Shown: piece by piece, positions 1,324 to 62,627 of the stretch
How positions within the stretch are numbered: position 1 is the stretch's first letter
Layout of the letters: every line of letters starts with the position of its first letter
IMG/VR virus record: IMGVR_UViG_3300028844_004552
Coordinates: 9,629-73,628 of that record
Direction: 5' to 3' (one strand)
Source: a virus
DNA length: 64,000 bases
The notes under the pieces: model-generated
Told to the model about the DNA's origin: nothing
Seen by the model: the letters and a program-made list of their open reading frames with translations, nothing else
Database searches by the model: none
Position numbers and translations under genes: made by a program

Positions 1324-3162
1324 ATGGCAATTAAAAAAATAAATTATACATCTAGAAATTTTTCCGACGTTAGAGGGGAATTAATTGAATTTGTTAGACA
1401 ATACTATCCAGAAATCTTCAATGATTTTAATGATGCTTCTGTAGGTATGATGCTTATAGAATTAAATGCGGCAGTCGCTGATATGCTTTCATTTAATACG
1501 GATAAAGCATTTCAAGAAACACAAATAGATTTTGCACAAGAACGAAAATCACTACTTTCACAAGCTAGAACATTTGGGTTAAAGGTACCAGGTAAGCGAC
1601 CATCAGTATCCATCGTCGATTATTCAGTAACAGTTCCAGTATTAGGTGATACTTGGGACGTATCATACGCACCAGTGATTAGAGAAGGTAGTCAAGTATC
1701 TGGAGCGGGTAAGGTATTTGAAAATTCAGTTGATATTGATTTTTCAAATCCATTCAATTTAGGTGGAATACCAAATAGATTGATTATCCCAAACATAGAT
1801 GAAAACGGTAATATATTAAATTATACTATTGTTAAAAGAGAGATGGTAACCAACGGTATAACAAAGGTGTTCAAGAGAACAATCTCAGCAAATGATTCTA
1901 AGCCATTCTTAGAGGTTATTCTTCCAGATAATGATGTAATGTCAGTTTCATCTGTAATTACCTTAGAAGGTGTTAATTACACCAAAATACCAACCTTAGA
2001 CCAATTTTTAGATATCGATAACCAATGGTTTGAGATGGATGCATTAGCTGAGGATAAAATATATGTTGGTGATACAAGTAAAATATCTGATAATTCTGGT
2101 GTAATACCAGGTAAGTTCATTTCAGTTGATAAGCGTTTCATAAGAGAATACACCGACCTAGGGTTTACAAAACTAATCTTCGGTGGTGGGTCTCAAGACA
2201 TATCAGCACTTTGTGATTTTGATGTAAATAAATCATTAATTAATAGAATTGGTGACTTCATCAATAATACATCATTAGGTCTTACATTACCATCTAATTA
2301 TACGATGTATGTTAGATATAGAGTAGGTGGTGGTTCAACATCTAATCTTGGTCCTAACACAATAAACACTGTAGGTGTTACAAATATGGTGGTTAATGGT
2401 GCAAGTCCAGCAATCAACAACTCAGTTACTACATCATTAAAGGTTAATAACCCAATACCAGCTTTAGGTGGTAAGGACCAACCTTCAATTGAAGAGTTAA
2501 GGAATTTAATTAAATATAATTTCTCAGCACAAAATAGATGTGTAACACTTAAGGATTATCAATCAAGAATTGCATTAATGCCAGGTGAATTTGGAGTTCC
2601 ATTTAGAACAGGTGTCTTCGAGGAACAAAATAAAATAAAGGTATATACATTAGGGTTAGATAGTAGTGGTAAATTAAGTAACACATCAACATCAGCACTT
2701 AGAGATAATATTGGGACATATCTTGCAGATTATAGAATGATTAATGATTATGTTGAAGTGGATAATGGTAGAGTTATAAATCTTAGTTTTGAAATTGACC
2801 TTTTTATTGAAAAACAATTCCCACAATCTCAAATAATGGCTGAGGTTATCAATCAAGTTAAAGATTATATGGATATTAATAAATTTGATATGGGTGATGA
2901 TATTTATCTTTCTGACCTTATGGAAATTATTAACAATGTTAATGGTGTAACCAATGTAATTGACATGAGAGTCTTTAATAAGGTTGGTGATGGTAAATAT
3001 TCATTAAATGAGATAGCACAACCATATGTTAATTCTTTAACTGATGATACGACAAGACAAATTGACTTATTAGGTCAGTTTACTTTATTTGGTGAAACAA
3101 CCTCTATGTTTGAGGTTAAATATCCAGATAAGGATATAATGGTTAGAGTTAAGACTATATAA
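1324..3162 (+). CDS. Baseplate wedge subunit, T4 gp6/baseplate-J-like
   Basis: INYTSRNFSDVRGELI N-terminus, LIFGGG, YRVGGG..SN, GGKDQPSIEELR, AQNRCVTLKDY motifs; adjacent to gp25-like gene. Confidence 0.88.
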   Translation: MAIKKINYTSRNFSDVRGELIEFVRQYYPEIFNDFNDASVGMMLIELNAAVADMLSFNTDKAFQETQIDFAQERKSLLSQARTFGLKVPGKRPSVSIVDYSVTVPVLGDTWDVSYAPVIREGSQVSGAGKVFENSVDIDFSNPFNLGGIPNRLIIPNIDENGNILNYTIVKREMVTNGITKVFKRTISANDSKPFLEVILPDNDVMSVSSVITLEGVNYTKIPTLDQFLDIDNQWFEMDALAEDKIYVGDTSKISDNSGVIPGKFISVDKRFIREYTDLGFTKLIFGGGSQDISALCDFDVNKSLINRIGDFINNTSLGLTLPSNYTMYVRYRVGGGSTSNLGPNTINTVGVTNMVVNGASPAINNSVTTSLKVNNPIPALGGKDQPSIEELRNLIKYNFSAQNRCVTLKDYQSRIALMPGEFGVPFRTGVFEEQNKIKVYTLGLDSSGKLSNTSTSALRDNIGTYLADYRMINDYVEVDNGRVINLSFEIDLFIEKQFPQSQIMAEVINQVKDYMDINKFDMGDDIYLSDLMEIINNVNGVTNVIDMRVFNKVGDGKYSLNEIAQPYVNSLTDDTTRQIDLLGQFTLFGETTSMFEVKYPDKDIMVRVKTI

Positions 3163-52966: not shown

Positions 52967-53995
52967 ATGGCGAAAAGAGATTATTATGAAGTATTAGGTG
53001 TAAGTAAAACTGCATCAGAAAAGGAAATTAAAAAAGCTTATAGAACAATAGCTAAGGAGAATCATCCAGACGTTAAACCAGACGACAAAGCAGCTGAGGA
53101 AGTATTCAGAGAAGCCGCAGAAGCCTACGAAACCTTAAGTGATAAGGATAAGAAGAATAACTATGATAGATTCGGTCACCAAGGTGCTCAGAGAGTTAAG
53201 GGTAGGCAAGACATGGAAGATATGATGCGTGAGATGTTCGGCAACCAACGACAACAAGTTAGGAAGGGTGAAAGTCTTAGATTGAATCTTAAGATGTCAC
53301 TTGAAGAAATGTTTAGTGGTGCTAAAAAAACATTAAAGTATGCTAAACAAGTTGTTTGTAAACCTTGTAATGGTAAGGGTGGTCATAACGTAAAAGGTTG
53401 TGGTGTCTGCAAGGGTTCTGGAATGATGTTTAGAAACATAAGGATGGGTAACCAAATGTTTCAAGAACAAAGTACATGTCAAAGCTGTAGAGGTACTGGT
53501 GAGATGATATCAGATATATGTAAGAACTGTAAGGGTGCTAAAACGATTAGTAAAACAAACACACTTGAAGTTGACATACCATCTGGAGTTATGGATGGAA
53601 TGCAAATAATATCCGAAGGTGGTGGTCATGAAACACCTAATGGTCACAATGGTGATGTAATGGTTGTATTAACACAATTATCTCACAACACATTTATTAG
53701 AAGTGGTAATGACTTGAAGGTTAATTTAAAATTAAGTTATACACAATTAGTATTAGGTGATAAGATTGAGATTGAAACCATAGAGGGTGGTAAGATACGA
53801 GCAACTATTCCACCATATAGCAATGTTGATGATAATCTTAGAATTCCTAACAAGGGAATGAATATTTTACATTCAAATGGACAGCGAGGTGATATGATAA
53901 TAATTCTAAGTGTCTCAGTACCAACAGAAGTGAGTGATGAGGAAAAAGAATTGCTAGAAAAATTACAGGATATCCAAAATAAGGTTGCACAGTAA
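52967..53995 (+). CDS. dnaJ: Molecular chaperone DnaJ
   Basis: DYYEVLGV, HPD motif, four CxxCxGxG-type repeats, C-terminal domain. Confidence 0.95.
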   Translation: MAKRDYYEVLGVSKTASEKEIKKAYRTIAKENHPDVKPDDKAAEEVFREAAEAYETLSDKDKKNNYDRFGHQGAQRVKGRQDMEDMMREMFGNQRQQVRKGESLRLNLKMSLEEMFSGAKKTLKYAKQVVCKPCNGKGGHNVKGCGVCKGSGMMFRNIRMGNQMFQEQSTCQSCRGTGEMISDICKNCKGAKTISKTNTLEVDIPSGVMDGMQIISEGGGHETPNGHNGDVMVVLTQLSHNTFIRSGNDLKVNLKLSYTQLVLGDKIEIETIEGGKIRATIPPYSNVDDNLRIPNKGMNILHSNGQRGDMIIILSVSVPTEVSDEEKELLEKLQDIQNKVAQ

Positions 53996-54047
53996 GCATA
54001 TTAGGTGTATATTTGTAATCTAATATTTAAAACAAAAAAGAAAAATT

Positions 54048-54476
54048 ATGGCAAAATTCGAAGAACCATTTGACAGTACAAAATCAGTATTCAAAACAGT
54101 TATTGATTTTACAGAGTTAGACAAAGTATTAACTTTTGATATCATCACTAACAACAAACTTAGGGAAATTTTCAAGGTAGCGAAGACCAACGATTACGAA
54201 AAACACAGAACTGGTGTTGATATTAAAATCTTTATCAATGAAGAGGTATTTGAAATGCTTGACGAGGTTCAACAAATGATAATTGTGGAAGAAGCATTAG
54301 CATATGTTGAATACAACTATGAAAAGGATACGGTTAAGATTAACAAACCAGATGTTATGGGTCACTCTGGAGTTATTAGTAAATTTGGTGACAAACTTTA
54401 CCTTGACACACTTACAATAATCAAAGCTGCTTTCAATTCATTAAAAGAAGCTAAGGAGGAAGAAGCTACGGCTTAA
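54048..54476 (+). CDS. Putative phage metallopeptidase-like protein (zinc ligands degenerate)
   Basis: IFINEEVFEML...QQMIIVEEAL...KPDV...G pattern. Confidence 0.5.
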   Translation: MAKFEEPFDSTKSVFKTVIDFTELDKVLTFDIITNNKLREIFKVAKTNDYEKHRTGVDIKIFINEEVFEMLDEVQQMIIVEEALAYVEYNYEKDTVKINKPDVMGHSGVISKFGDKLYLDTLTIIKAAFNSLKEAKEEEATA

Positions 54477-54491
54477 AAAAGAAAAAAAAAT

Positions 54492-55223
54492 ATGATAGAT
54501 TTTTATTCAGAATTTAAAGACTACGCAATAAAACATATGGGTATTAGCGGTCTCCAATTCCATGATTGGGAGAAGGTACAAGAGACGTTATACTCGAATG
54601 TGATGACACAAGCTAATTATGGTATTCAAGGAAATATGACACCTTACATTATTGAGGAACGTCAAATGAATATGACTCAAATGGATATCTTTTCACGAAT
54701 GATGATGGATAGAATCCTTTGGGTTGCTGGACCAGTTAATGACCAAATGAGTAATGTTGTTTCAGCACAGCTTATGTTCTTAGATAATGTTGATGAGACT
54801 GATATTAAGATGCATGTAGATTCACCTGGTGGGTCGGTCAAGTCTGGACTATCAATGGTAGATACCATGAACTATATTGCTTCCGATGTCTCAACAATTA
54901 ACTTTGGTATGGCTGCATCAATGGGTTCAATTCTATTAGGTAATGGTGAGAAGGGGAAACGTTTCTCTTTACCAAATTCAGTTGTGATGCTTCACCAAGT
55001 TTCATCTGGTGCACGAGGTCATGTTGAAGATATGAAGATTAGTCTTGAACAAGCTGTTAAGTATAATGATAAGTTATTTGATATGCTTGGTGATTATACT
55101 GGTAAGACCAAAAAGAAAGTAATTGCTGATTGTAACAGAGATAATTGGTTGGATGCTGATGAAGCACTCAAGTATGGTATTATCGATGGTATTATCAAGA
55201 ATAAGGTTAAAAAGAATATCTAA
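54492..55223 (+). CDS. clpP: ATP-dependent Clp protease proteolytic subunit
   Basis: PYIIEE, DIFSRMMMDRI, DSPGGSV, GMAASMGS, MLHQVSSG, RDNWL.A.EA..YG.ID. Confidence 0.95.
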   Translation: MIDFYSEFKDYAIKHMGISGLQFHDWEKVQETLYSNVMTQANYGIQGNMTPYIIEERQMNMTQMDIFSRMMMDRILWVAGPVNDQMSNVVSAQLMFLDNVDETDIKMHVDSPGGSVKSGLSMVDTMNYIASDVSTINFGMAASMGSILLGNGEKGKRFSLPNSVVMLHQVSSGARGHVEDMKISLEQAVKYNDKLFDMLGDYTGKTKKKVIADCNRDNWLDADEALKYGIIDGIIKNKVKKNI

Positions 55224-55570
55224 TGAAGGTCGCAGTTGTTGGGGGTAGAACCTTTGATGATTATAAGAGACTTGAGCGTACCCTAGATTCAATTTTAGCT
55301 GGTGCTGGATTTGACACCATCGTAAGTGGTGGTGCTATAGGTGCTGATTCACTTGGAGCTAGATATGCGGACGAGAGAGGTCTTAAAAAGATAATTCATC
55401 TTCCAGATTGGGACCTACACGGAAAGGCTGCTGGTTTCATTAGAAATGAATTAATAATAACTGATGCTGATATAGTTGTTGCTTGTTGGAATGGTGAAAG
55501 CCGAGGAACCAACAATTCAATAGCATTGGCAAAACAACAAAAGAAAGATACACTTACATTATATTATTAG
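55223..55570 (+). CDS. SLOG-superfamily protein (DUF2493/YspA-like)
   Basis: MKVAVVGGR.F.D, IVSGGAIGAD, DW..HGKAAGFIRN, WNGESRGT. Confidence 0.88.
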   Translation: MKVAVVGGRTFDDYKRLERTLDSILAGAGFDTIVSGGAIGADSLGARYADERGLKKIIHLPDWDLHGKAAGFIRNELIITDADIVVACWNGESRGTNNSIALAKQQKKDTLTLYY

Positions 55571-55572
55571 TT

Positions 55573-55851
55573 ATGGTAAAAGAAAGAGAAAGATTCACGG
55601 TAAGTGAAGAAGAAATTGATGACTTCACAAGTGAAGATAGTTGGGAAATAAATGGTGAGACTTATAATTTCGTTGAGGATTATCCAAGTAGAGATTGTGA
55701 TGGGGAATGTCATAATGTTGTTGTACAAAGAGAATCGGATAAGAAGTACTTCCTATTCTTTTGGATGTTAACACGTAGTGAAAATTATCATTATGATGAA
55801 GATTGGAACGAAGTAACTCGTAAAGAGGTGATAACTGTAACTTGGGAATAG
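55573..55851 (+). CDS. Hypothetical acidic protein
   Basis: 92-aa ORF. Confidence 0.65.
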   Translation: MVKERERFTVSEEEIDDFTSEDSWEINGETYNFVEDYPSRDCDGECHNVVVQRESDKKYFLFFWMLTRSENYHYDEDWNEVTRKEVITVTWE

Positions 55852-55864
55852 AATAATTATTAAA

Positions 55865-56227
55865 ATTGTGTTACTTCCATAAAAAAAAATAAAAATATAT
55901 GGAAACAATTATATTAATATTGATATCAGTCGCTTCAACATTGGGTGTTGTTGCTATAGTTACGGCTATAGTGGTTGCGTTCTTTAAGTTGAAGAATAAG
56001 GTTGATTATACAGATTTAGATAGCTTAACAAATGAAATGAATCAGAGGTTTGATGACTTATATCGAACAACCAATGATACAGATTTAGAAACAAGAAGGG
56101 TCATAGACTCTAGGTGTGATAAGTTAGACACCAAAATACAAAACTTAAATAAAACAATAATCAAGGGTGGTAAACAATTACTAACCGATTAAATAAGAAT
56201 AAAAATAACAATAAGAAGTAACACAAT
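55865..56227. repeat. 13-bp perfect inverted repeat flanking one gene
   Basis: attgtgttacttc (55865-55877) / gaagtaacacaat (56215-56227). Confidence 0.8.
55899..56192 (+). CDS. Single-TM coiled-coil protein
   Basis: N-terminal hydrophobic helix then coiled coil, IDSRCDKL. Confidence 0.7.
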   Translation: METIILILISVASTLGVVAIVTAIVVAFFKLKNKVDYTDLDSLTNEMNQRFDDLYRTTNDTDLETRRVIDSRCDKLDTKIQNLNKTIIKGGKQLLTD

Positions 56228-56260
56228 AAAAGAGGGATTCGAAAGTTTTCCTCTTTTTTT
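56228..56260 (+). terminator. Rho-independent terminator
   Basis: aaaagaggga...ttcctcttttttt hairpin. Confidence 0.7.
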
Positions 56261-56270
56261 ATTAAAAAAC

Positions 56271-56301
56271 TTGACATTAGATAAAACTTTTAGTATATTT
56301 G
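56271..56301 (+). promoter_or_regulatory. Promoter for tmRNA (TTGACA-N14-TAGTATATTTG), followed by boxA-like GTTCTTTAA at 56322
   Basis: Conserved motif and spacing. Confidence 0.85.
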
Positions 56302-56335
56302 CACATATTTAAAAGATACACGTTCTTTAATTTAT

Positions 56336-56703
56336 GGGGTTGACTGGCATTTGATTGTTTATTAAAACATGATTTGTAAGCATGCACAGCGAAGTGGACA
56401 AGCTGTTAAAACTGAGACACAAATTTAACTGGAAACTTAACTGTATCCGAAAATTTCCTTGACAACGCATCGATAGGTGTGCTTGACGGAGAGATGGCTG
56501 TAGCCTAAAACAGCACATGGTACTGGTATCGTACCGAACTTCAATGATAAACGAAGTAAACATATATCCAAGATAACTTTTATTAGAAACACCGACTTGT
56601 AAAATCGGGAACTAGTAAACTTTGCTAGAATTAGAAACTAGATAAGCATGTAGAAAACACTTTATGTGTAAGCAAGACGAGAGTTCGAATCTCTCCAACT
56701 CCA
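56336..56703 (+). ncRNA. ssrA: tmRNA, tag (A)GNLTVSENFLDNASIGVLDGEMAVA*
   Basis: Acceptor stem GGGGTTG/CAACTCC with G3.U70, GAC-gagag-TTCGAAT-ctctc T-arm, GCATG helix-2 pair, taact-GGA resume context at 56431, stop at 56506-56508; CCA not encoded. Confidence 0.92.
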
Positions 56704-56742
56704 CGCTAACGCTCCACACCCACAAGTTGGGAGTGAAATATT

Positions 56743-56782
56743 AAGCCTCGTATTGACAAGAATGCGGGGCTTCGTTGTTTTT
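56743..56782 (+). terminator. Probable terminator after tmRNA
   Basis: aagcctcgtatt-gacaag-aatgcggggctt hairpin followed by T-rich tract. Confidence 0.65.
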
Positions 56783-56825
56783 ATACTTTTACGTTTACGA
56801 AGGTATTTATCATAAAAACAACGTT

Positions 56826-57119
56826 ATGTCAAAGAAAAAAAGATTTAAATTATTCACAGATATTCTAAAACAAAATGGAAAGTATTCTCAAGGTAGAGTT
56901 TATCTTCTTTGGTCTGTGGTAGCATATTATATTACATTAGGTATACTTACTTTCTCTGGTATTAGAAAGGATGAAATAGAAATGGAAAACTTTAAGATGA
57001 TTGTTGATGCATTAGAATATGCAATGACATTATTCGGTGGTTATGTATTTGGTGGTAAGTTCTTAGAAGTAGTGAAAGTAGTTCGAGGAAATAAATCTGA
57101 ATCAGAAAATGAGGGGTAA
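56826..57119 (+). CDS. Two-TM holin-like membrane protein
   Basis: ATG 56826 after gtatttat motif; basic N-term, GKYSQGR then two TMs. Confidence 0.6.
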   Translation: MSKKKRFKLFTDILKQNGKYSQGRVYLLWSVVAYYITLGILTFSGIRKDEIEMENFKMIVDALEYAMTLFGGYVFGGKFLEVVKVVRGNKSESENEG

Positions 57120-57149
57120 AATAAAAGGGTCAATTAAGACCCTTTAAAG

Positions 57150-57224
57150 TTATTTACTAGTATTAGTAGTATTTGCCGCTGGTTTCGGCTTCGGCTTATT
57201 TTTCTTTTTGCATCCACATCCCAT
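57150..57224 (-). CDS. 24-aa MGCGCK basic peptide (not in ORF track)
   Basis: MGCGCKKKNKPKPKPAANTTNTSK*; gatatttatt motif upstream on minus strand; hairpin 57124-57145 downstream. Confidence 0.6.
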   Translation of the reverse strand: MGCGCKKKNKPKPKPAANTTNTSK

Positions 57225-57332
57225 AATTTATATTTTTTAGTTAAACTTATTATCTTATACTAATAAATATCATTTTAATTGAAAATAAAGTCTAATTGTT
57301 GACAAATTTATTAAAAATGTTATATTTAAGGT

Positions 57333-57566
57333 ATGATAAACTTATTTAAACGTACGAGTATTTCAATTCTTGATAAAGATTGGAAACCAATTAAACAAGG
57401 TGTAAAATTAAAACACATACCTAGATATGATGAAATTGTCTGGATTGAAGAAACCCACCAATATTATAAGGTATTAAATGTAGTTTATTATCTAAATAAG
57501 AAACAAGGTATATTTATTATTGTTGGTGAAATGGATAATAAATCATTGAAAATCAAGGAAAAGTAA
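57333..57566 (+). CDS. Hypothetical protein
   Basis: 77-aa ORF after ttgaca...tatattta. Confidence 0.65.
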   Translation: MINLFKRTSISILDKDWKPIKQGVKLKHIPRYDEIVWIEETHQYYKVLNVVYYLNKKQGIFIIVGEMDNKSLKIKEK

Positions 57567-57595
57567 ATTAATTTCAAAGAAAAATGAAATTTTAC

Positions 57596-57626
57596 TTGAC
57601 AAGTGAGTATATATGTAGTATATTTG
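57596..57626 (+). promoter_or_regulatory. Promoter of small-RNA cluster (TTGACA-N14-TAGTATATTTG)
   Basis: Conserved motif; boxA-like GTTCATTGAA at ~57646; about 1 kb without ORFs follows. Confidence 0.85.
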
Positions 57627-57666
57627 TATTCTATTAAGCGAAATAGTTCATTGAAAATTAAGATAT

Positions 57667-57800
57667 AGTCAAAAAGGATAATTACGGCAAACCGTAAAAC
57701 AAAATCTAAAGGAAGTGGTTAAGTATAGGTTCCACATAAAATAAACCGCCATGGTGTCTAGACCCATGTAAAAAAAACACTAAACCATTATTCTGTGACT
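57667..57800 (+). ncRNA. Candidate Y-RNA-like ncRNA B
   Basis: agtca/tgact outer stem, aggataat/attattct-g inner stem, tacggcaa motif. Confidence 0.6.
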
Positions 57801-57808
57801 TAAAAAAA

Positions 57809-57889
57809 TTGATTAAGGTCTAAGGGTCCTAAGTGTGTAACAGCAATGTTCGAACTCCATCTAGAATGGTGACCTCTGACCTTAATCAA
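57809..57889 (+). ncRNA. Candidate Y-RNA-like ncRNA C
   Basis: 12-bp perfect stem ttgattaaggtc/gaccttaatcaa, inner agggtc/gacctct-g, aacagcaa motif. Confidence 0.65.
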
Positions 57890-57894
57890 CAACT

Positions 57895-57999
57895 GGGGAG
57901 ATAGTATAAGAGAGAATACTATTTCATAGAGAACCTCCTTCTTTATGAAATATTCGAGTACGACTTCGGTAAGTCAAGGTTCAAGTCCTAGTCTCCCCA
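57895..57999 (+). ncRNA. tRNA-like RNA with 13-bp anticodon-position hairpin and CCTCC loop
   Basis: GGGGAGA/TCTCCCC-A acceptor, GTAT/ATAC D-arm, GG-TTCAAGT-CC T-arm; no canonical anticodon loop. Confidence 0.75.
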
Positions 58000-58004
58000 C
58001 TAAA

Positions 58005-58058
58005 AGAAAGGATTCAGCAATTAACTTTTTTCAAAAAAAAAAAAACAGTCCCTTTCTG
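58005..58058 (+). ncRNA. Candidate minimal Y-RNA-like ncRNA D
   Basis: agaaagg/cctttct-g stem, attcagcaa motif, U/A homopolymer loop. Confidence 0.55.
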
Positions 58059-58067
58059 ACAACATTA

Positions 58068-58163
58068 CGTTGAAGTATTTAAATGATTTCAGCGAATCAT
58101 ACTCCACCTATCGTCATGGTAACGATAGCTAATAGTGTAAGTCTATTGTGGGGTACTTTAGCG
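58068..58163 (+). ncRNA. Structured RNA: outer stem enclosing a mini-tRNA-like module (YrlA-like layout)
   Basis: cgttgaagta/tactttagcg stem; inner actccac/gtggggt, ctatcgt/acgatag hairpin and aatag-TGTAAGT-ctatt T-arm-like hairpin. Confidence 0.55.
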
Positions 58164-58202
58164 GTTAGCACTATACGATACCGAGGGATAGGAAGTGCAA
58201 AT

Positions 58203-58252
58203 GGGAGTATAAGATGTAAGTCTTATTGGTAGAGCGATACTATCTACTCCCA
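58203..58252 (+). ncRNA. 50-nt mini-tRNA-like RNA
   Basis: GGGAGTA/TACTCCC-A acceptor-like stem, one hairpin, then 5-bp arm with 7-nt loop AGCGATA. Confidence 0.6.
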
Positions 58253-58257
58253 CATAT

Positions 58258-58330
58258 TGCGGGGTGGAGCAGTTGGTAGCTCGCAAGGCTCATAACCTTG
58301 AGGTCGTCCGTTCGAGTCGGGCTCCCGCTA
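58258..58330 (+). tRNA. tRNA-Met(CAT), initiator type
   Basis: Full cloverleaf, loop CTCATAA, 1:72 mismatch (T:T), A11:T24 pair; CCA not encoded. Confidence 0.93.
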
Positions 58331-58335
58331 CAAAT

Positions 58336-58384
58336 GGAGATGCATGCATTAGGCATGATTAAGGAGCAATATCTTACATCTCCA
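58336..58384 (+). ncRNA. 49-nt mini-tRNA-like RNA
   Basis: GGAGATG/CATCTCC-A stem, catgc/gcatg hairpin, 5-bp arm with 7-nt loop AGCAATA. Confidence 0.6.
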
Positions 58385-58391
58385 CTAAACG

Positions 58392-58424
58392 AGGGGAAGC
58401 GAAAGCTTCCCCTTAGATTTTTTT
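58392..58424 (+). terminator. GNRA hairpin/terminator
   Basis: aggggaagc-gaaa-gcttcccct then T-tract after a short spacer. Confidence 0.65.
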
Positions 58425-58429
58425 GGTAC

Positions 58430-58489
58430 TGGGTTATGAATCAAAATGACAGATGTGGTTGAAACGATAGTCCACGATATCATAACCCA
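58430..58489 (+). ncRNA. Unassigned hairpin RNA
   Basis: 10-bp stem tgggttatga/tcataaccca with internal gtgg/ccac hairpin. Confidence 0.4.
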
Positions 58490-58628
58490 ACAATTTTTTA
58501 CCATTTTTTGTATAAAAATAGGACACACTCGTTGCCCGATTAGGGTGATAGAGATACTTAAACGCTAACCCTTGACGGTTGGCGTTCTTAGTTTTGCACC
58601 GTATTATATTTTTTAGTATATTTGCATC

Positions 58629-59267
58629 ATGAATAGAAAATTTTTGATACTAGGGAATATGCGACATGGTAAGGATACGTTCGCAGAATTGATGGGTGAA
58701 TATTACGGGCTTAAATTCCAATCATCATCACAAGCAGCTGCTGACATATTCATTTACGATACACTTAAAGACAAGTACAACTATTCAACACCAGCAGAGT
58801 GTTTCGAAGACCGAGAGGGTCATAGGCAAGAATGGTATGAGTTAATCCTTGATTATAACAAGGATGACCGAGCAAGACTAGCTAAGGGGATTCTTGAACG
58901 TGCGGATTGTTATGTTGGTATGAGAGACCATGGGGAGATTACTGAATGTATGAATCAAGGACTATTCGACCTAATTATTTGGGTTGACGCATCTGGAAGA
59001 CTTCCACTCGAACCATCCACCTCCTTCAACATTGATATGAGTTGTGCTGATATAATTATTGAGAACAATGGAACTCTAGATGAGTTTAAGGGTAAGGTTA
59101 AAAGGATTGGAAGTATTCTAATGAATCACGAACCAACAACCATTAATGAGACTGATTTTTGTAATTGTGAATACCCTAAGCCCAATGTAATGGTATTGGA
59201 TAATGAGAAGTTTATAATCTGTATTGGGTGTAATAAAGAAATTATTGCAAGTTTAGAAAAAAAGTAG
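58629..59267 (+). CDS. Deoxynucleoside monophosphate kinase-like P-loop protein
   Basis: LILGNMRHGKDT, VGMR...E, IIWVD, ADIIIENNGTL; C-terminal Cys pairs. Confidence 0.75.
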   Translation: MNRKFLILGNMRHGKDTFAELMGEYYGLKFQSSSQAAADIFIYDTLKDKYNYSTPAECFEDREGHRQEWYELILDYNKDDRARLAKGILERADCYVGMRDHGEITECMNQGLFDLIIWVDASGRLPLEPSTSFNIDMSCADIIIENNGTLDEFKGKVKRIGSILMNHEPTTINETDFCNCEYPKPNVMVLDNEKFIICIGCNKEIIASLEKK

Positions 59268-61432: not shown

Positions 61433-61502
61433 TTTGGATACTAAGATTTAAATGACTATATTTGTTATGATGAAAGAATTTATTAGAAATAGAATTAGAG
61501 AA
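60674..61502 (+). repeat. 33-bp exact direct repeat at two gene starts (60674-60706, 61470-61502)
   Basis: atgaaagaatttattagaaatagaattagagaa = MKEFIRNRIRE. Confidence 0.92.
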
Positions 61503-62627
61503 GGACTTATCACGGAGAACCGAGTTAAGTTTAACCTTACAATACCAAGTGATATACTTGAGATTAAAGACGTGTTTGTTAAAAACGGTTTTAAATTGTA
61601 TGTTGTTGGTGGTGCTGTAAGAGATGCCCTTTTAGGTAAAACACCTAAGGATTGGGACCTCGCAACTGATGCTAACCCAGACCAAGTGGAAGCTATAATG
61701 GCGAAGGGTGGTTTCAAGACTATCCCAACTGGTAAGGCATTCGGAGTAATCAATGTATTCAGTGATACTGATGAATATGAAATCGCAACATTCAGAAAAG
61801 ATATAGGTTCTGGTAGAAGACCAGATGCAGTTGAGTTTACGACTATTGACCAAGATGTTAAGAGACGTGACCTTACAATCAATGCACTTTTCTTTGATAT
61901 AAATACAAATGAGATAGTTGACCTTGTAGGTGGTATCTCAGACCTTAAGAAAGGTATTGTGAGAACTGTTGGCGCACCAGAGGAAAGATTTGAAGAAGAT
62001 AGACTTAGAATCCTTAGAGCAATTAGATTTGCTGGTAGATTTGGTAGTGAATTGGAACCAAACGTTGATGCGGCACTTAAGAAGGATGCTAGTCTTGATG
62101 GTATTAGTCCAGAGAGAATCAGAGATGAATTCTTAAAGGGTGTTAAGACAACAAAGACAATCAACCAATTCTTAGGGTTATTAGATAAGTACAACTTATT
62201 CAATGATGTATTCAAGGGATTAAGTGTATCTAAGAACTTCTTAGAAGAAAGAGACCCAATTGTGCTACTTGCTTGGTTACTTAAGGATAACGACCCACAT
62301 AAGTTAGGTAAGGTACTTAATAAGTTGACTTACTCAAGTACTGAGGTTAAGGCTATCACATTCTTGGTTGCATTACAACAATTCAATAACCCAGAGGATG
62401 TATTTGTATTCAAGAAGCAACAAGTTAACGCTGGGTTATCAGATGAACAAATAAGAAAGTTCGGTAGATTTATCAACTTAGATTCTAAGATGCTTGACGC
62501 ATTTATAGACTTTAGATTGAGTGTAACTGGTGCTGATGCTCAAAAAGAGTTAGGTGTGGAAGCTGGACCAGAAATGGGTAAAGCAATAAAACAACTTGAA
62601 ACGGAGAAGTTTAAGGCAATGTTATAG
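61470..62627 (+). CDS. cca: tRNA nucleotidyltransferase (class II CCA-adding enzyme/poly(A) polymerase family)
   Basis: YVVGGAVRDALLG..PKDWDLATDA, EIATFR, DVKRRDLTINALF, RFEEDRLRILRAIRF, ISPERIRDEF. Confidence 0.92.
   Translation: MKEFIRNRIREGLITENRVKFNLTIPSDILEIKDVFVKNGFKLYVVGGAVRDALLGKTPKDWDLATDANPDQVEAIMAKGGFKTIPTGKAFGVINVFSDTDEYEIATFRKDIGSGRRPDAVEFTTIDQDVKRRDLTINALFFDINTNEIVDLVGGISDLKKGIVRTVGAPEERFEEDRLRILRAIRFAGRFGSELEPNVDAALKKDASLDGISPERIRDEFLKGVKTTKTINQFLGLLDKYNLFNDVFKGLSVSKNFLEERDPIVLLAWLLKDNDPHKLGKVLNKLTYSSTEVKAITFLVALQQFNNPEDVFVFKKQQVNAGLSDEQIRKFGRFINLDSKMLDAFIDFRLSVTGADAQKELGVEAGPEMGKAIKQLETEKFKAML

What the first reader, a model, noticed from the sequence alone, without database searches (positions are those of the whole stretch)
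58101..58384. Three ~50-nt mini-tRNAs (acceptor stem + one hairpin + T-arm) around tRNA-iMet
Seen: 58203-58252 and 58336-58384 each have a 7-bp terminal stem, a single hairpin, a short linker, a 5-bp arm with 7-nt loop AGC(G/A)ATA, and a discriminator A. Their stem sequences are unrelated but geometry matches. 58101-58154 repeats the geometry with loop TGTAAGT. Known: acceptor plus T-arm is the minimal substrate for RNase P, RNase Z and CCA-adding enzyme, as in mascRNA. Inference: a class of anticodon-less tRNA mimics acting as processing punctuation for the polycistronic RNA, or as decoys.
Basis: partly seen in the sequence, partly recalled or inferred. Interest (0 to 1): 0.72.

Follow-up and report, generated by a model that had tools for sequence, protein, structure and literature searches.

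The report
Three mini tRNA-like RNAs in phage
A marine jumbo-phage fragment carries three real ~50-nt RNAs that keep only the acceptor stem, one hairpin and the T-arm of a tRNA, packed around its initiator-like tRNA-Met, and they look like the smallest members of a wider set of tRNA-shaped RNAs that cannot decode.

Summary
At 58101-58155, 58203-52 and 58336-84 (+) each element forms a 7-bp terminal stem, a hairpin, a 2-nt linker, a 5-bp arm with a 7-nt loop, and a discriminator A. Every stem position pairs (19/19, 17/17, 17/17). Three such hits in 284 nt compare with about 5.5 chance hits in the whole 73.6-kb record.

They lie in a non-coding unit between a promoter-like site at 57596 and a terminator at 58391. 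They share junctions with the true tRNA-Met and tmRNA: T before the 5' end, A73, then C.

The closest relative, L016, keeps mini 3's acceptor stem, but all 5 hairpin pairs are changed on both sides. It lacks minis 1 and 2 and the tRNA-Met. More distant relatives carry larger tRNA-shaped RNAs with 4-5-nt "anticodon" loops or a GAAA-capped arm, with covariation, in that part of the operon. Some have HDV-like ribozymes right after tRNA-Met.

They are not decoding tRNAs.

Best reading: tRNA-mimic modules cut by RNase P and a 3' nuclease, then CCA-tailed, serving mainly as processing punctuation. A trans-acting decoy role is not excluded. No RNA-end data exist.

The parts
58101..58155 (+). Mini tRNA-like 1: 7-bp acceptor, 7-bp hairpin (loop CATGGTA), linker CT, 5-bp arm (loop TGTAAGT), discriminator A
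   Evidence: 19 of 19 pairs. Absent as an exact indel in L016. Competes with spacer pairing in the context fold.
58156..58202 (+). Spacer with a hairpin (GCACT...AGTGC) between minis 1 and 2
   Evidence: Homologous stretch in L016 with GTACT...AGTAC, one pair changed on both sides (read by eye). Global identity 28 of 47. On its own it does not fold better than shuffles (z +0.33).
58203..58252 (+). Mini tRNA-like 2: acceptor GGGAGTA/TACTCCC, 5-bp hairpin, linker TT, arm with loop AGCGATA, discriminator A; 5 nt before tRNA-Met
   Evidence: Hit by the model built from mini 3 at 23.9 bits, E 3.7e-5, filters off. Sits where relatives have the 74-83-nt 'family A' tRNA-like RNA.
58258..58331 (+). tRNA-Met (CAU) with a 1:72 U-U mismatch (initiator-like), no encoded CCA
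   Evidence: ARAGORN; Rfam RF00005 54.8 bits with the non-pair marked at 1:72.
58336..58384 (+). Mini tRNA-like 3: acceptor GGAGATG/CATCTCC, 5-bp hairpin, linker AT, arm with loop AGCAATA, discriminator A; 5 nt after tRNA-Met, 6 nt before the terminator
   Evidence: Homologue L016:3094-3144 at 34.6 bits with compensatory changes.
58391..58424 (+). Intrinsic terminator closing the non-coding unit
   Evidence: 10-bp stem with 6 G-C pairs, then a T run. Also folds in context.
57596..57624 (+). Promoter-like site (TTGACA-17-TATATT, 11 of 12) heading the non-coding unit
   Evidence: Identical hexamers stand before the tmRNA (56271) and before ORF 57333 (57299). Consensus match only.
57895..57999 (+). 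Larger tRNA-like RNA ('family C'): acceptor, D-arm, T-arm TTCAAGT, extra arm, and a 13-bp arm with a 5-nt loop in place of the anticodon arm
   Evidence: Rfam tRNA 31.1 bits with a 48-nt insert. Fold z -3.83. 97 of 107 identical in L016.
58005..58059 (+). 'CAGCAA element': 7-bp stem joining the ends, UUNCAGCAA next to the 5' strand, A-rich interior, CUGR after the stem
   Evidence: Regex hits, mostly two per locus, in the viral-contig relatives, with different complementary stem words. Further hits.
61452..62627 (+). Phage tRNA nucleotidyltransferase (CCA-adding type) ORF, 3 kb downstream
   Evidence: Pfam PolyA_pol head domain 2.9e-37 plus the RNA-binding domain.
56336..56706 (+). Phage tmRNA; shares the junction grammar (T at -1, A73, C74)

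Best explanation
The three elements are reduced tRNA mimics. Each keeps the 12-bp acceptor/T-arm stack (7 + 5 bp), a 7-nt T-like loop with A at position 58, a discriminator A and one extra hairpin. None has a usable anticodon loop or a D-arm.

They are made as part of one roughly 790-nt non-coding transcript running from the promoter-like site at 57596 to the terminator at 58391. That transcript also carries a larger tRNA-like RNA, the CAGCAA element and the initiator-like tRNA-Met.

Inferred mechanism:
- Host RNase P cuts at each mini's 5' end, which follows a U.
- A 3' nuclease trims to the discriminator or to C74.
- The phage or host CCA-adding enzyme completes the end.

Their main job would be cis-acting punctuation. 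Mini 3 lets RNase P sever tRNA-Met from the terminator hairpin, leaving a 5-nt trailer. Mini 2, and mini A in L016, define the 3' end of the conserved spacer RNA. The excised minis would be stable by-products.

Shown here: the structure, the clustering, the junction grammar, and structural conservation of mini 3.
Inferred: transcription as one unit, every cleavage, CCA addition, and the purpose.
For: 1. Geometry. All stem positions pair in all three, and the acceptor plus arm is always 7 + 5 bp, while the first hairpin varies from 5 to 7 bp with 5-7-nt loops.

2. Clustering far above chance.

3. Junction grammar shared with the true tRNA-Met and tmRNA. In my table of 45 tRNA, tmRNA and tRNA-like modules from the window and relatives, the base before the 5' end is T in 31 of 45. 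Position 73 is A in 37 of 45; the other 8 are T and all belong to family B. Position 74 is C in 40 of 45, against a genomic C frequency of 0.14. All three minis read AT|...|A|C. Two rows of that table (L011 family-B mini and L040 TL) had ends set a base or more off, and many rows are orthologues rather than independent.

4. Conservation. L016:3094-3144 has the same acceptor stem (7 of 7 pairs identical). All 5 compared hairpin pairs are changed on both sides yet still pair. In the T stem, 1 pair is changed on both sides and 2 on one side, and all pair. Loop and linker lengths are the same. A model built from mini 3 alone scores it 34.6 bits.

5. One unit. There is a promoter-like site and a terminator, and no ORF of 50 aa or more other than one overlapping the tRNA.

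6. Slot equivalence. Directly after the discriminator of tRNA-Met, L007, L009, L017 and L032 carry an element aligning at 88% mean column identity with an RF02682-scoring HDV-like ribozyme of L011. It fits the nested double-pseudoknot fold in 98.1% of cells, with 3 pairs changed on both sides. Such ribozymes are reported to mature phage tRNA 3' ends (PMC10879173, passages read).

7. A CCA-adding-type enzyme is encoded 3 kb downstream, and neither the minis nor the tRNA-Met encode CCA.

8. Precedent. Plant mitochondrial t-elements are non-canonical tRNA-like structures that direct RNase P/Z cuts and receive non-encoded C/CA (PMC1920247, passages read).
Against: - There are no RNA-end or CCA data. 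Contigs from two RNA libraries cover only 57599-57808 at near-identity and do not cover the minis.
- tRNA-Met is itself an RNase P substrate, so mini 2 is not needed for its 5' end.
- L016 keeps the spacer but lacks minis 1 and 2, so they are dispensable there.
- A bare minihelix would suffice for processing, yet all four minis keep the first hairpin. That hints at a further requirement.
- The T-like loops (AGCGATA, AGCAATA, TGTAAGT) lack the usual T-Psi-C sequence and there is no D-loop partner, so recognition by RNase P may be weak.
- Mini 1 is out-competed by alternative pairing in the context fold.
- In most relatives the place after tRNA-Met holds the CAGCAA element, whose function is unknown, so 'a processing slot' is an inference drawn from the ribozyme cases only.
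Confidence: 0.45

Rival explanations
1. Trans-acting acceptor-arm mimics. After tRNA-like maturation and CCA addition the minis would act on proteins that read the acceptor/T-arm half of tRNAs. They could be decoys for host defence nucleases or toxins that attack tRNA, or could titrate or be charged by synthetases, formyltransferase, EF-Tu or aminoacyl-transferases. The larger non-decoding tRNA-like RNAs of relatives would do the same.
For: - Relatives conserve full tRNA-shaped RNAs whose anticodon arm is closed by a 4-5-nt loop or a GAAA-capped arm. Covariation is seen in 10 of 21 pairs (family B, 10 sequences) and 15 of 32 pairs (family A, 5 sequences). Punctuation alone hardly needs such elaborate, conserved RNAs.
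- Mini 3 and L016 mini A keep an identical acceptor stem while the rest has changed.
- All minis keep a hairpin beyond the minimal minihelix.
- Presence and absence turn over fast between the window and L016, as expected in an arms race.
- The phage invests in its own CCA enzyme, tmRNA and initiator-like tRNA.
Against: - No target is identifiable.
- No known identity set is present. G3-U70 is absent: positions 3:70 are U-G, G-C and A-U.
- The T-like loops are non-canonical and there is no tRNA elbow.
- No literature precedent for phage decoys of this shape turned up in my four searches.
Confidence: 0.25
2. Decaying relics. Internal deletions of former tRNA or tRNA-like genes (families A and B) left the terminal halves, which are still transcribed but have no function of their own.
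For: - Minis 1 and 2 occupy the place where relatives have family B or family A.
- Mini 2's first hairpin resembles the small hairpin of family A, and mini 1's loop TGTAAGT resembles TGTAACC of the 61-nt reduced family B in L011 (by eye).
- Minis 1 and 2 are missing in L016.
- L017 holds a tRNA-Met-like sequence without a T-arm (by eye), so truncation is common in this clade.
Against: - All 53 stem positions of the three minis still pair, with one G-U each. Neutral decay should have broken some.
- Mini 3's hairpin was remade with 5 of 5 double changes in L016.
- The junction grammar is intact.
Confidence: 0.15
3. Arm-less decoding tRNAs of the kind known from some mitochondria, with the first hairpin acting as an anticodon arm.
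For: Mini 1's first hairpin can be drawn as 5 bp with a 7-nt loop, CAUGGUA.
Against: - That loop would have A at position 33 and U at position 37. The loops of minis 2 and 3 are 6 and 5 nt.
- ARAGORN in standard and two mitochondrial modes calls none of them.
- Rfam tRNA gives no match at E up to 10.
Confidence: 0.02
4. Something else on the DNA or RNA: chance inverted repeats, protein-binding sites, or small self-cleaving ribozymes.
For: - The descriptor alone is not rare: 10 hits per genome against 5.5 expected.
- The topology is symmetric, so the minus strand also scores.
Against: - Clustering, junction grammar and the L016 covariation.
- Each mini has one G-U pair on the + strand, which would be a C-A mismatch on the other strand.
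- No ribozyme family matches at E up to 10. The three share no core sequence, and the strand that would form P2 of an HDV-like fold pairs locally instead.
Confidence: 0.05

Closest known systems
Plant mitochondrial t-elements (PMC1920247, passages read)
   Same: Both are non-canonical tRNA-like structures embedded in longer transcripts. In t-elements the ends coincide with RNase P/Z cuts that shape neighbouring RNAs, and the excised elements carry non-encoded C/CA.
   Different: t-elements keep a perfectly conserved T-arm sequence (GGTTCRANYCC) and are about 74-nt cloverleaf-like. The phage minis are 49-55 nt, have unusual T-like loops and no D-arm, flank non-coding RNAs rather than mRNAs, and have no experimental support.
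mascRNA / MEN-beta tRNA-like ends of vertebrate lncRNAs (recalled, not read here)
   Same: tRNA-like, non-decoding, cut out by RNase P and RNase Z and CCA-tailed. They serve to form the 3' end of the upstream RNA.
   Different: These are eukaryotic and cloverleaf-shaped with four arms. There is one per transcript rather than a tandem array around a true tRNA.
HDV-like 'theta' ribozymes next to phage tRNAs (PMC10879173, passages read)
   Same: Same genomic slot. Relatives of this phage have HDV-like ribozymes starting at the base after the tRNA-Met discriminator, where the window has mini 3 five bases further on. Both would free the tRNA 3' end.
   Different: The mechanism is entirely different: self-cleavage versus presumed RNase P. 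The minis lack the double pseudoknot and give no Rfam match.
Canonical tRNA / tmRNA tRNA-like domain
   Same: 7-bp acceptor stem, 5-bp arm with a 7-nt loop stacked on it, discriminator A, and the same flanking grammar as the phage's own tRNA-Met and tmRNA.
   Different: No D-arm, no anticodon loop, no T-Psi-C sequence, no G3-U70. Not detected by ARAGORN or RF00005.
Stable non-tRNA RNAs in the phage T4 tRNA cluster, and gammaherpesvirus 68 tRNA-like RNAs (both recalled, not read here)
   Same: Virus-encoded small RNAs co-located or fused with tRNA-type processing signals, of unclear function.
   Different: Different sizes, shapes and hosts. No sequence relation was tested.

Membership tests
tRNA (Rfam RF00005, canonical cloverleaf) | 7-bp acceptor stem plus discriminator | tested here: met
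   7 of 7 pairs in each mini, discriminator A.
tRNA (Rfam RF00005, canonical cloverleaf) | 5-bp T stem with 7-nt loop directly joined to the 3' acceptor strand | tested here: met
   5 of 5 pairs, 7-nt loop, no nucleotide between arm and acceptor strand in all three.
tRNA (Rfam RF00005, canonical cloverleaf) | T-loop sequence T54-Psi55-C56-R57-A58 | tested here: not met
   The loops are TGTAAGT, AGCGATA and AGCAATA. Only the fifth-position A is common to all.
tRNA (Rfam RF00005, canonical cloverleaf) | D-arm, and an anticodon arm with a 7-nt loop (U33, purine 37) | tested here: not met
   Only one hairpin lies between the acceptor and the T-arm. Its loops are 7 nt (A at 33, U at 37), 6 nt and 5 nt.
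tRNA (Rfam RF00005, canonical cloverleaf) | Detection by the family model or tRNA finders | tested here: not met
   No RF00005 match at E up to 10 over 56000-58700. ARAGORN in standard, -mt, -mtmam and -ps80 modes calls none.
tRNA-like processing elements (t-element / mascRNA kind) | 12-bp acceptor/T-arm stack that RNase P, RNase Z and CCA-adding enzyme can read | tested here: met
   7 + 5 bp in all three and in L016 mini A. That this stack suffices for those enzymes is established knowledge, not tested here.
tRNA-like processing elements (t-element / mascRNA kind) | Embedded in a longer transcript beside other RNAs | tested here: inconclusive
   Promoter-like site at 57596 and terminator at 58391, with no ORF between. 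RNA-library contigs cover only 57599-57808.
tRNA-like processing elements (t-element / mascRNA kind) | Ends made by RNase P and RNase Z; non-templated CCA | not testable with these tools
   Only assembled contigs were available, and none lies over the minis.
HDV-like / theta ribozyme | Nested double pseudoknot (P1, P1.1, P2, P3) with a catalytic C | tested here: not met
   No Rfam ribozyme match at E up to 10. The segment after the 5' stem strand pairs locally. True HDV-like elements of relatives fit the fold, whereas the minis do not resemble them.
Alanine minihelix / tmRNA tRNA-like domain | G3-U70 wobble pair | tested here: not met
   Positions 3:70 are U-G, G-C and A-U in minis 1, 2 and 3.

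The most novel reading that the evidence does not exclude
The minis would be the smallest members of an undescribed class of phage-encoded, non-decoding tRNA-shaped RNAs found across this clade. The class would run from full cloverleaves with 4-5-nt 'anticodon' loops down to 49-55-nt three-way junctions. Members would be matured and CCA-tailed like tRNAs and then act in trans on host or phage proteins that read the acceptor/T-arm half of tRNA. One example would be decoys against tRNA-targeting defence.
Probability: 0.25. Interest if true: 0.85.

Novelty: new variant of a known kind. Interest (0 to 1): 0.6.

Why it matters
tRNA-like processing signals are known from organelles and from eukaryotic lncRNAs. 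I found no report of tandem mini tRNA mimics, or of families of anticodon-less tRNA-shaped RNAs, in phage RNA operons. The searches were full-text ones; supplements were closed.

If the elements are processed as predicted, they show a phage building a non-coding operon from interchangeable maturation modules: tRNA mimics, HDV-like ribozymes and the CAGCAA element. They would also give a natural 49-nt substrate for RNase P, RNase Z and CCA-enzyme studies.

If instead they act in trans, they would be a new kind of phage counter-measure or regulator aimed at the tRNA machinery.

Tried and rejected
- Close relatives in phage GenBank records: blastn found only the tRNA-Met, in 74 records, none covering 80% or more of the query.
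- IMG/VR pattern scans gave 0 hits each for two conserved stretches of the operon and for a degenerate mini-3 pattern.
- RNA evidence. Of 24 runs listed, I laid two RNA and two DNA runs. No contig lies over 58120-58250 or 58340-58460, so nothing can be said about expression or ends of the minis. Depth over 58254-58336 comes from other organisms' tRNA-Met (4-14 differing letters per piece).
- A relaxed descriptor (arm 4 of 5 pairs, up to 2 G-U) gave 309 plus-strand and 224 minus-strand hits in 329 kb and was useless.
- The stricter scan gave 23 plus-strand and 15 minus-strand hits. Among these, the L039 'mini' turned out to lie inside a complete suppressor tRNA and was dropped.
- MAFFT could not put the four minis in structural register, so I built no family covariance model. 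The single-sequence model R1 found only mini 3 and L016 mini A in 43 sources (285 kb) with default filters. With filters off on two loci it also found mini 2.
- nhmmer profiles of family A did not reach mini 2.
- HDV-like elements after tRNA-Met in L007 and L009 did not score at E up to 1 in Rfam. Their identity rests on alignment to the scoring L011 copy and on pair counts.

Full report
**What the window is.** The window is 64 kb of a 73,628-base IMG/VR virus record that CheckV rates 21% complete. That points to a jumbo phage. It is 30-37% G+C.

Near the finding it encodes DnaJ, ClpP, a GNAT acetyltransferase and a CCA-adding-type nucleotidyltransferase at 61452-62627. It also has a tmRNA at 56336-56706 and one canonical tRNA, tRNA-Met at 58258-58331. 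Rfam marks a non-pair at 1:72 of that tRNA (U-U), an initiator-like trait.

**The observation.** The only correction is that mini 1's discriminator A is at 58155.

Each element has the same layout: a 7-bp terminal stem, a hairpin that starts directly after it, a 2-nt linker, a 5-bp arm with a 7-nt loop joined directly to the 3' stem strand, and then A. Every stem position pairs (19/19, 17/17, 17/17), with one G-U each. The acceptor and arm are always 7 + 5 bp. The first hairpin varies: 7, 5 and 5 bp, with loops of 7, 6 and 5 nt.

Folded alone, the three give these shapes with z-scores of -1.8, -2.7 and -3.3. In a 431-nt context fold, minis 2 and 3, the tRNA and the terminator persist. Mini 1 is displaced by pairing with the following spacer.

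**Is it more than chance?** A descriptor for this geometry is not rare by itself. It gives 10 hits on both strands of the whole record, against 5.5 +/- 2.2 in 40 Markov simulations. In the window, 7 hits are 56 nt or shorter.

Three on one strand within 284 nt, beside the only tRNA, is a different matter: about 0.01 is expected in such a span. All three also share AT before the 5' end, A at position 73 and C at position 74.

**Context.** Three near-identical promoter-like sites (TTGACA-17-TATATT) stand before the tmRNA, before ORF 57333 and at 57596. A strong terminator lies at 58391-58424. Between 57596 and 58424 there is no ORF of 50 aa or more, apart from one overlapping the tRNA.

The predicted unit holds, in order:
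- a roughly 260-nt leader;
- a 105-nt tRNA-like RNA (57895-57999), which scores 31.1 bits against Rfam tRNA and has a 13-bp, 5-nt-loop arm where the anticodon arm should be;
- the 'CAGCAA element' (58005-58059);
- mini 1;
- a 47-nt spacer;
- mini 2;
- tRNA-Met;
- mini 3;
- the terminator.

The spacers on either side of the tRNA are 5 nt (CATAT and CAAAT).

**Relatives.** The kinase-like ORF just downstream (58629-59267) retrieved 13 IMG/VR loci at 66-75% amino-acid identity and 35 metagenome loci, the best at 82% (L016).

L016 has the same operon. Identities to the window are 232/264 for the leader, 97/107 for the large tRNA-like RNA and 325/371 for the tmRNA. It has no tRNA-Met, no mini 1 (a clean indel) and no mini 2.

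It does keep a homologue of mini 3 at 3094-3144. The acceptor stem is identical. All 5 compared hairpin pairs are changed on both sides and still pair. In the T stem, one pair has a double change and two have single changes, and all pair. The 5-nt loop, 2-nt linker and 7-nt loop lengths are the same.

A covariance model made from mini 3 alone scores the L016 copy at 34.6 bits. With filters off it scores mini 2 at 23.9 bits, so minis 2 and 3 look like paralogues. In 43 sources (285 kb) with default filters it finds nothing else. The mini form therefore seems confined to this lineage. Three IMG/VR pattern scans for closer kin found nothing.

**Wider class.** More distant relatives carry larger tRNA-shaped RNAs between the upstream CAGCAA element and tRNA-Met.
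- 'Family B' (10 sequences aligned) is a cloverleaf with canonical D- and T-loops but a 5-bp arm closed by 4-5 nt. Ten of its 21 pairs show double changes. A 61-nt reduced form in L011 and L015 has a GAAA-capped mini arm and the loop TGTAACC.
- 'Family A' (5 sequences) is a linker-less four-way junction with a small hairpin and a long arm. Fifteen of its 32 pairs show double changes.
- 'Family C' relatives of 57895-57999 have 3-6-nt loops in the same arm.

None of these can decode. Minis 1 and 2 sit in the family B/A part of the operon. By eye they resemble those families in loop or hairpin sequence, but profiles did not link them.

**Junction grammar.** I tabulated 45 tRNA, tmRNA and tRNA-like modules. 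The base before the 5' end is T in 31. Position 73 is A in 37, and T in 8 that are all family B. Position 74 is C in 40. The three G exceptions at position 74 are the first base of HDV-like ribozymes. The rows include orthologues, and two rows have misplaced ends.

A preference for U at -1 by bacterial RNase P is established knowledge. The minis follow the same grammar as the genuine tRNA-Met and tmRNA. This is the best available sign that they enter the same maturation route.

**The slot after tRNA-Met.** Rfam finds HDV-like ribozymes (RF02682, 46.2 bits) right after the tmRNA in L011, L012 and L015.

Elements aligning at 88% mean column identity with these begin at the base after the tRNA-Met discriminator in L007, L009, L017 and L032. 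They fit the double-pseudoknot fold in 98.1% of cells, with three pairs changed on both sides, one of them in P1.1. They did not score at E up to 1 in Rfam.

Such ribozymes were shown to process phage tRNA 3' ends (PMC10879173, passages read). In most other relatives the CAGCAA element fills that slot. In the window, mini 3 does.

**Interpretation.** The elements are tRNA mimics reduced to the part that RNase P, RNase Z and CCA-adding enzymes read. They are not decoding tRNAs, not HDV-like ribozymes, and not alanine minihelices.

The most economical function is cis punctuation. An RNase P cut at mini 3 would detach tRNA-Met from the terminator hairpin. A cut at mini 2 (mini A in L016) would define the 3' end of the spacer RNA, which is conserved with one compensatory pair. 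Plant mitochondrial t-elements are the closest precedent (PMC1920247, passages read).

Several points argue against this reading:
- the retained first hairpin;
- the elaborate, conserved larger families;
- the identical acceptor stem of mini 3 and its homologue;
- the dispensability of minis 1 and 2 in L016.

These keep a trans-acting role alive (decoy or carrier), and to a lesser degree a relic reading. Nothing here measures RNA ends. The only RNA-library contigs at near-identity cover 57599-57808.

**Literature.** Full-text searches for phage tRNA-like minihelices, decoys or anticodon-less tRNA-like RNAs returned no description of such elements. The jumbo-phage survey mentions CCA-adding enzymes and a Ro-associated tRNA-like partner only (PMC7824862, passages read). 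Supplements were closed, and they might list such RNAs.

**Verdict.** The feature is real. It is a new variant of the known kind 'tRNA-like processing or mimic element', embedded in a richer and apparently undescribed phage RNA operon. Its function is inferred, not shown.

Noticed in passing
window 58005-58059; two copies in most viral-contig relatives, e.g. L003:2344-2404 and L003:2623-2680: The 'CAGCAA element' has a 7-bp stem joining its ends (stem words differ but stay complementary), UUNCAGCAA next to the 5' strand, an A-rich variable interior, and CUGR after the stem. It lies 3-6 nt after tRNA 3' ends and before terminators. It hits Rfam Dicty_Class_I_RNA (RF01414) at 26.8-32 bits, below the 41.5-bit cut-off. 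That family has the same architecture (PMC7919456, passages read). Some copies carry an internal T-arm-like hairpin (GTGG TTCAATT CCAC).
   Followed up: partly
window 57895-57999: A 105-nt tRNA-like RNA with acceptor stem, D-arm, T-arm (TTCAAGT) and an extra arm, but a 13-bp stem with a 5-nt loop instead of an anticodon arm. Rfam tRNA scores it 31.1 bits. It is 97/107 identical in L016. Related copies in L004, L011, L020 and L040 have 3-6-nt loops there.
   Followed up: partly
L011:556-624, L012, L015 (after tmRNA); L007:2766-2838, L009:2538-2610, L017:2502-2576, L032:928-1000 (after tRNA-Met): HDV-like ribozymes start at the base after the discriminator of the tmRNA or tRNA-Met in this aquatic phage clade. 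Theta ribozymes were reported mainly from gut phages and next to tRNAs; the passages I read do not mention a tmRNA (term 'tmRNA': 0 occurrences).
   Followed up: partly
L017:2452-2501: A tRNA-Met-like sequence (loop containing CAT) that appears to lack a T-arm, followed at once by an HDV-like ribozyme. ARAGORN finds no tRNA in this locus.
   Followed up: no
window 57599-57808 and 57811-57893: The leader of the non-coding unit is present at 0-1 differences in contigs of two metatranscriptome libraries of one study. That does not prove transcription. One DNA run has a contig that skips 57811-57893, a long-stemmed module, replacing it with ATA.
   Followed up: no
L003:2489-2533, L010:3302-3346, L045, L048: A conserved ~45-nt element (GGCCCAGT...ACTGGTGCC enclosing a 5-bp hairpin) stands about 10 nt upstream of tRNA-Met genes. 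It has no Rfam match.
   Followed up: no
L003:4549, L007:6236, L011:5063, L013:4807 and others: Most relatives carry a CUA-anticodon (amber suppressor) tRNA downstream of the kinase-like gene, which hints at TAG recoding in the clade. None is found in this window.
   Followed up: no
window 52967-56706: The phage encodes DnaJ, ClpP, a SLOG-family protein and its own tmRNA (predicted tag VLDGEMAVA) in one neighbourhood. This amounts to a proteostasis and ribosome-rescue module.
   Followed up: no
window 58128-58146 vs 58211-58229: Mini 1's T-like arm and mini 2's first hairpin share TGTAAGTCT..ATTG (seen in the MAFFT alignment). This suggests module shuffling between the minis.
   Followed up: no
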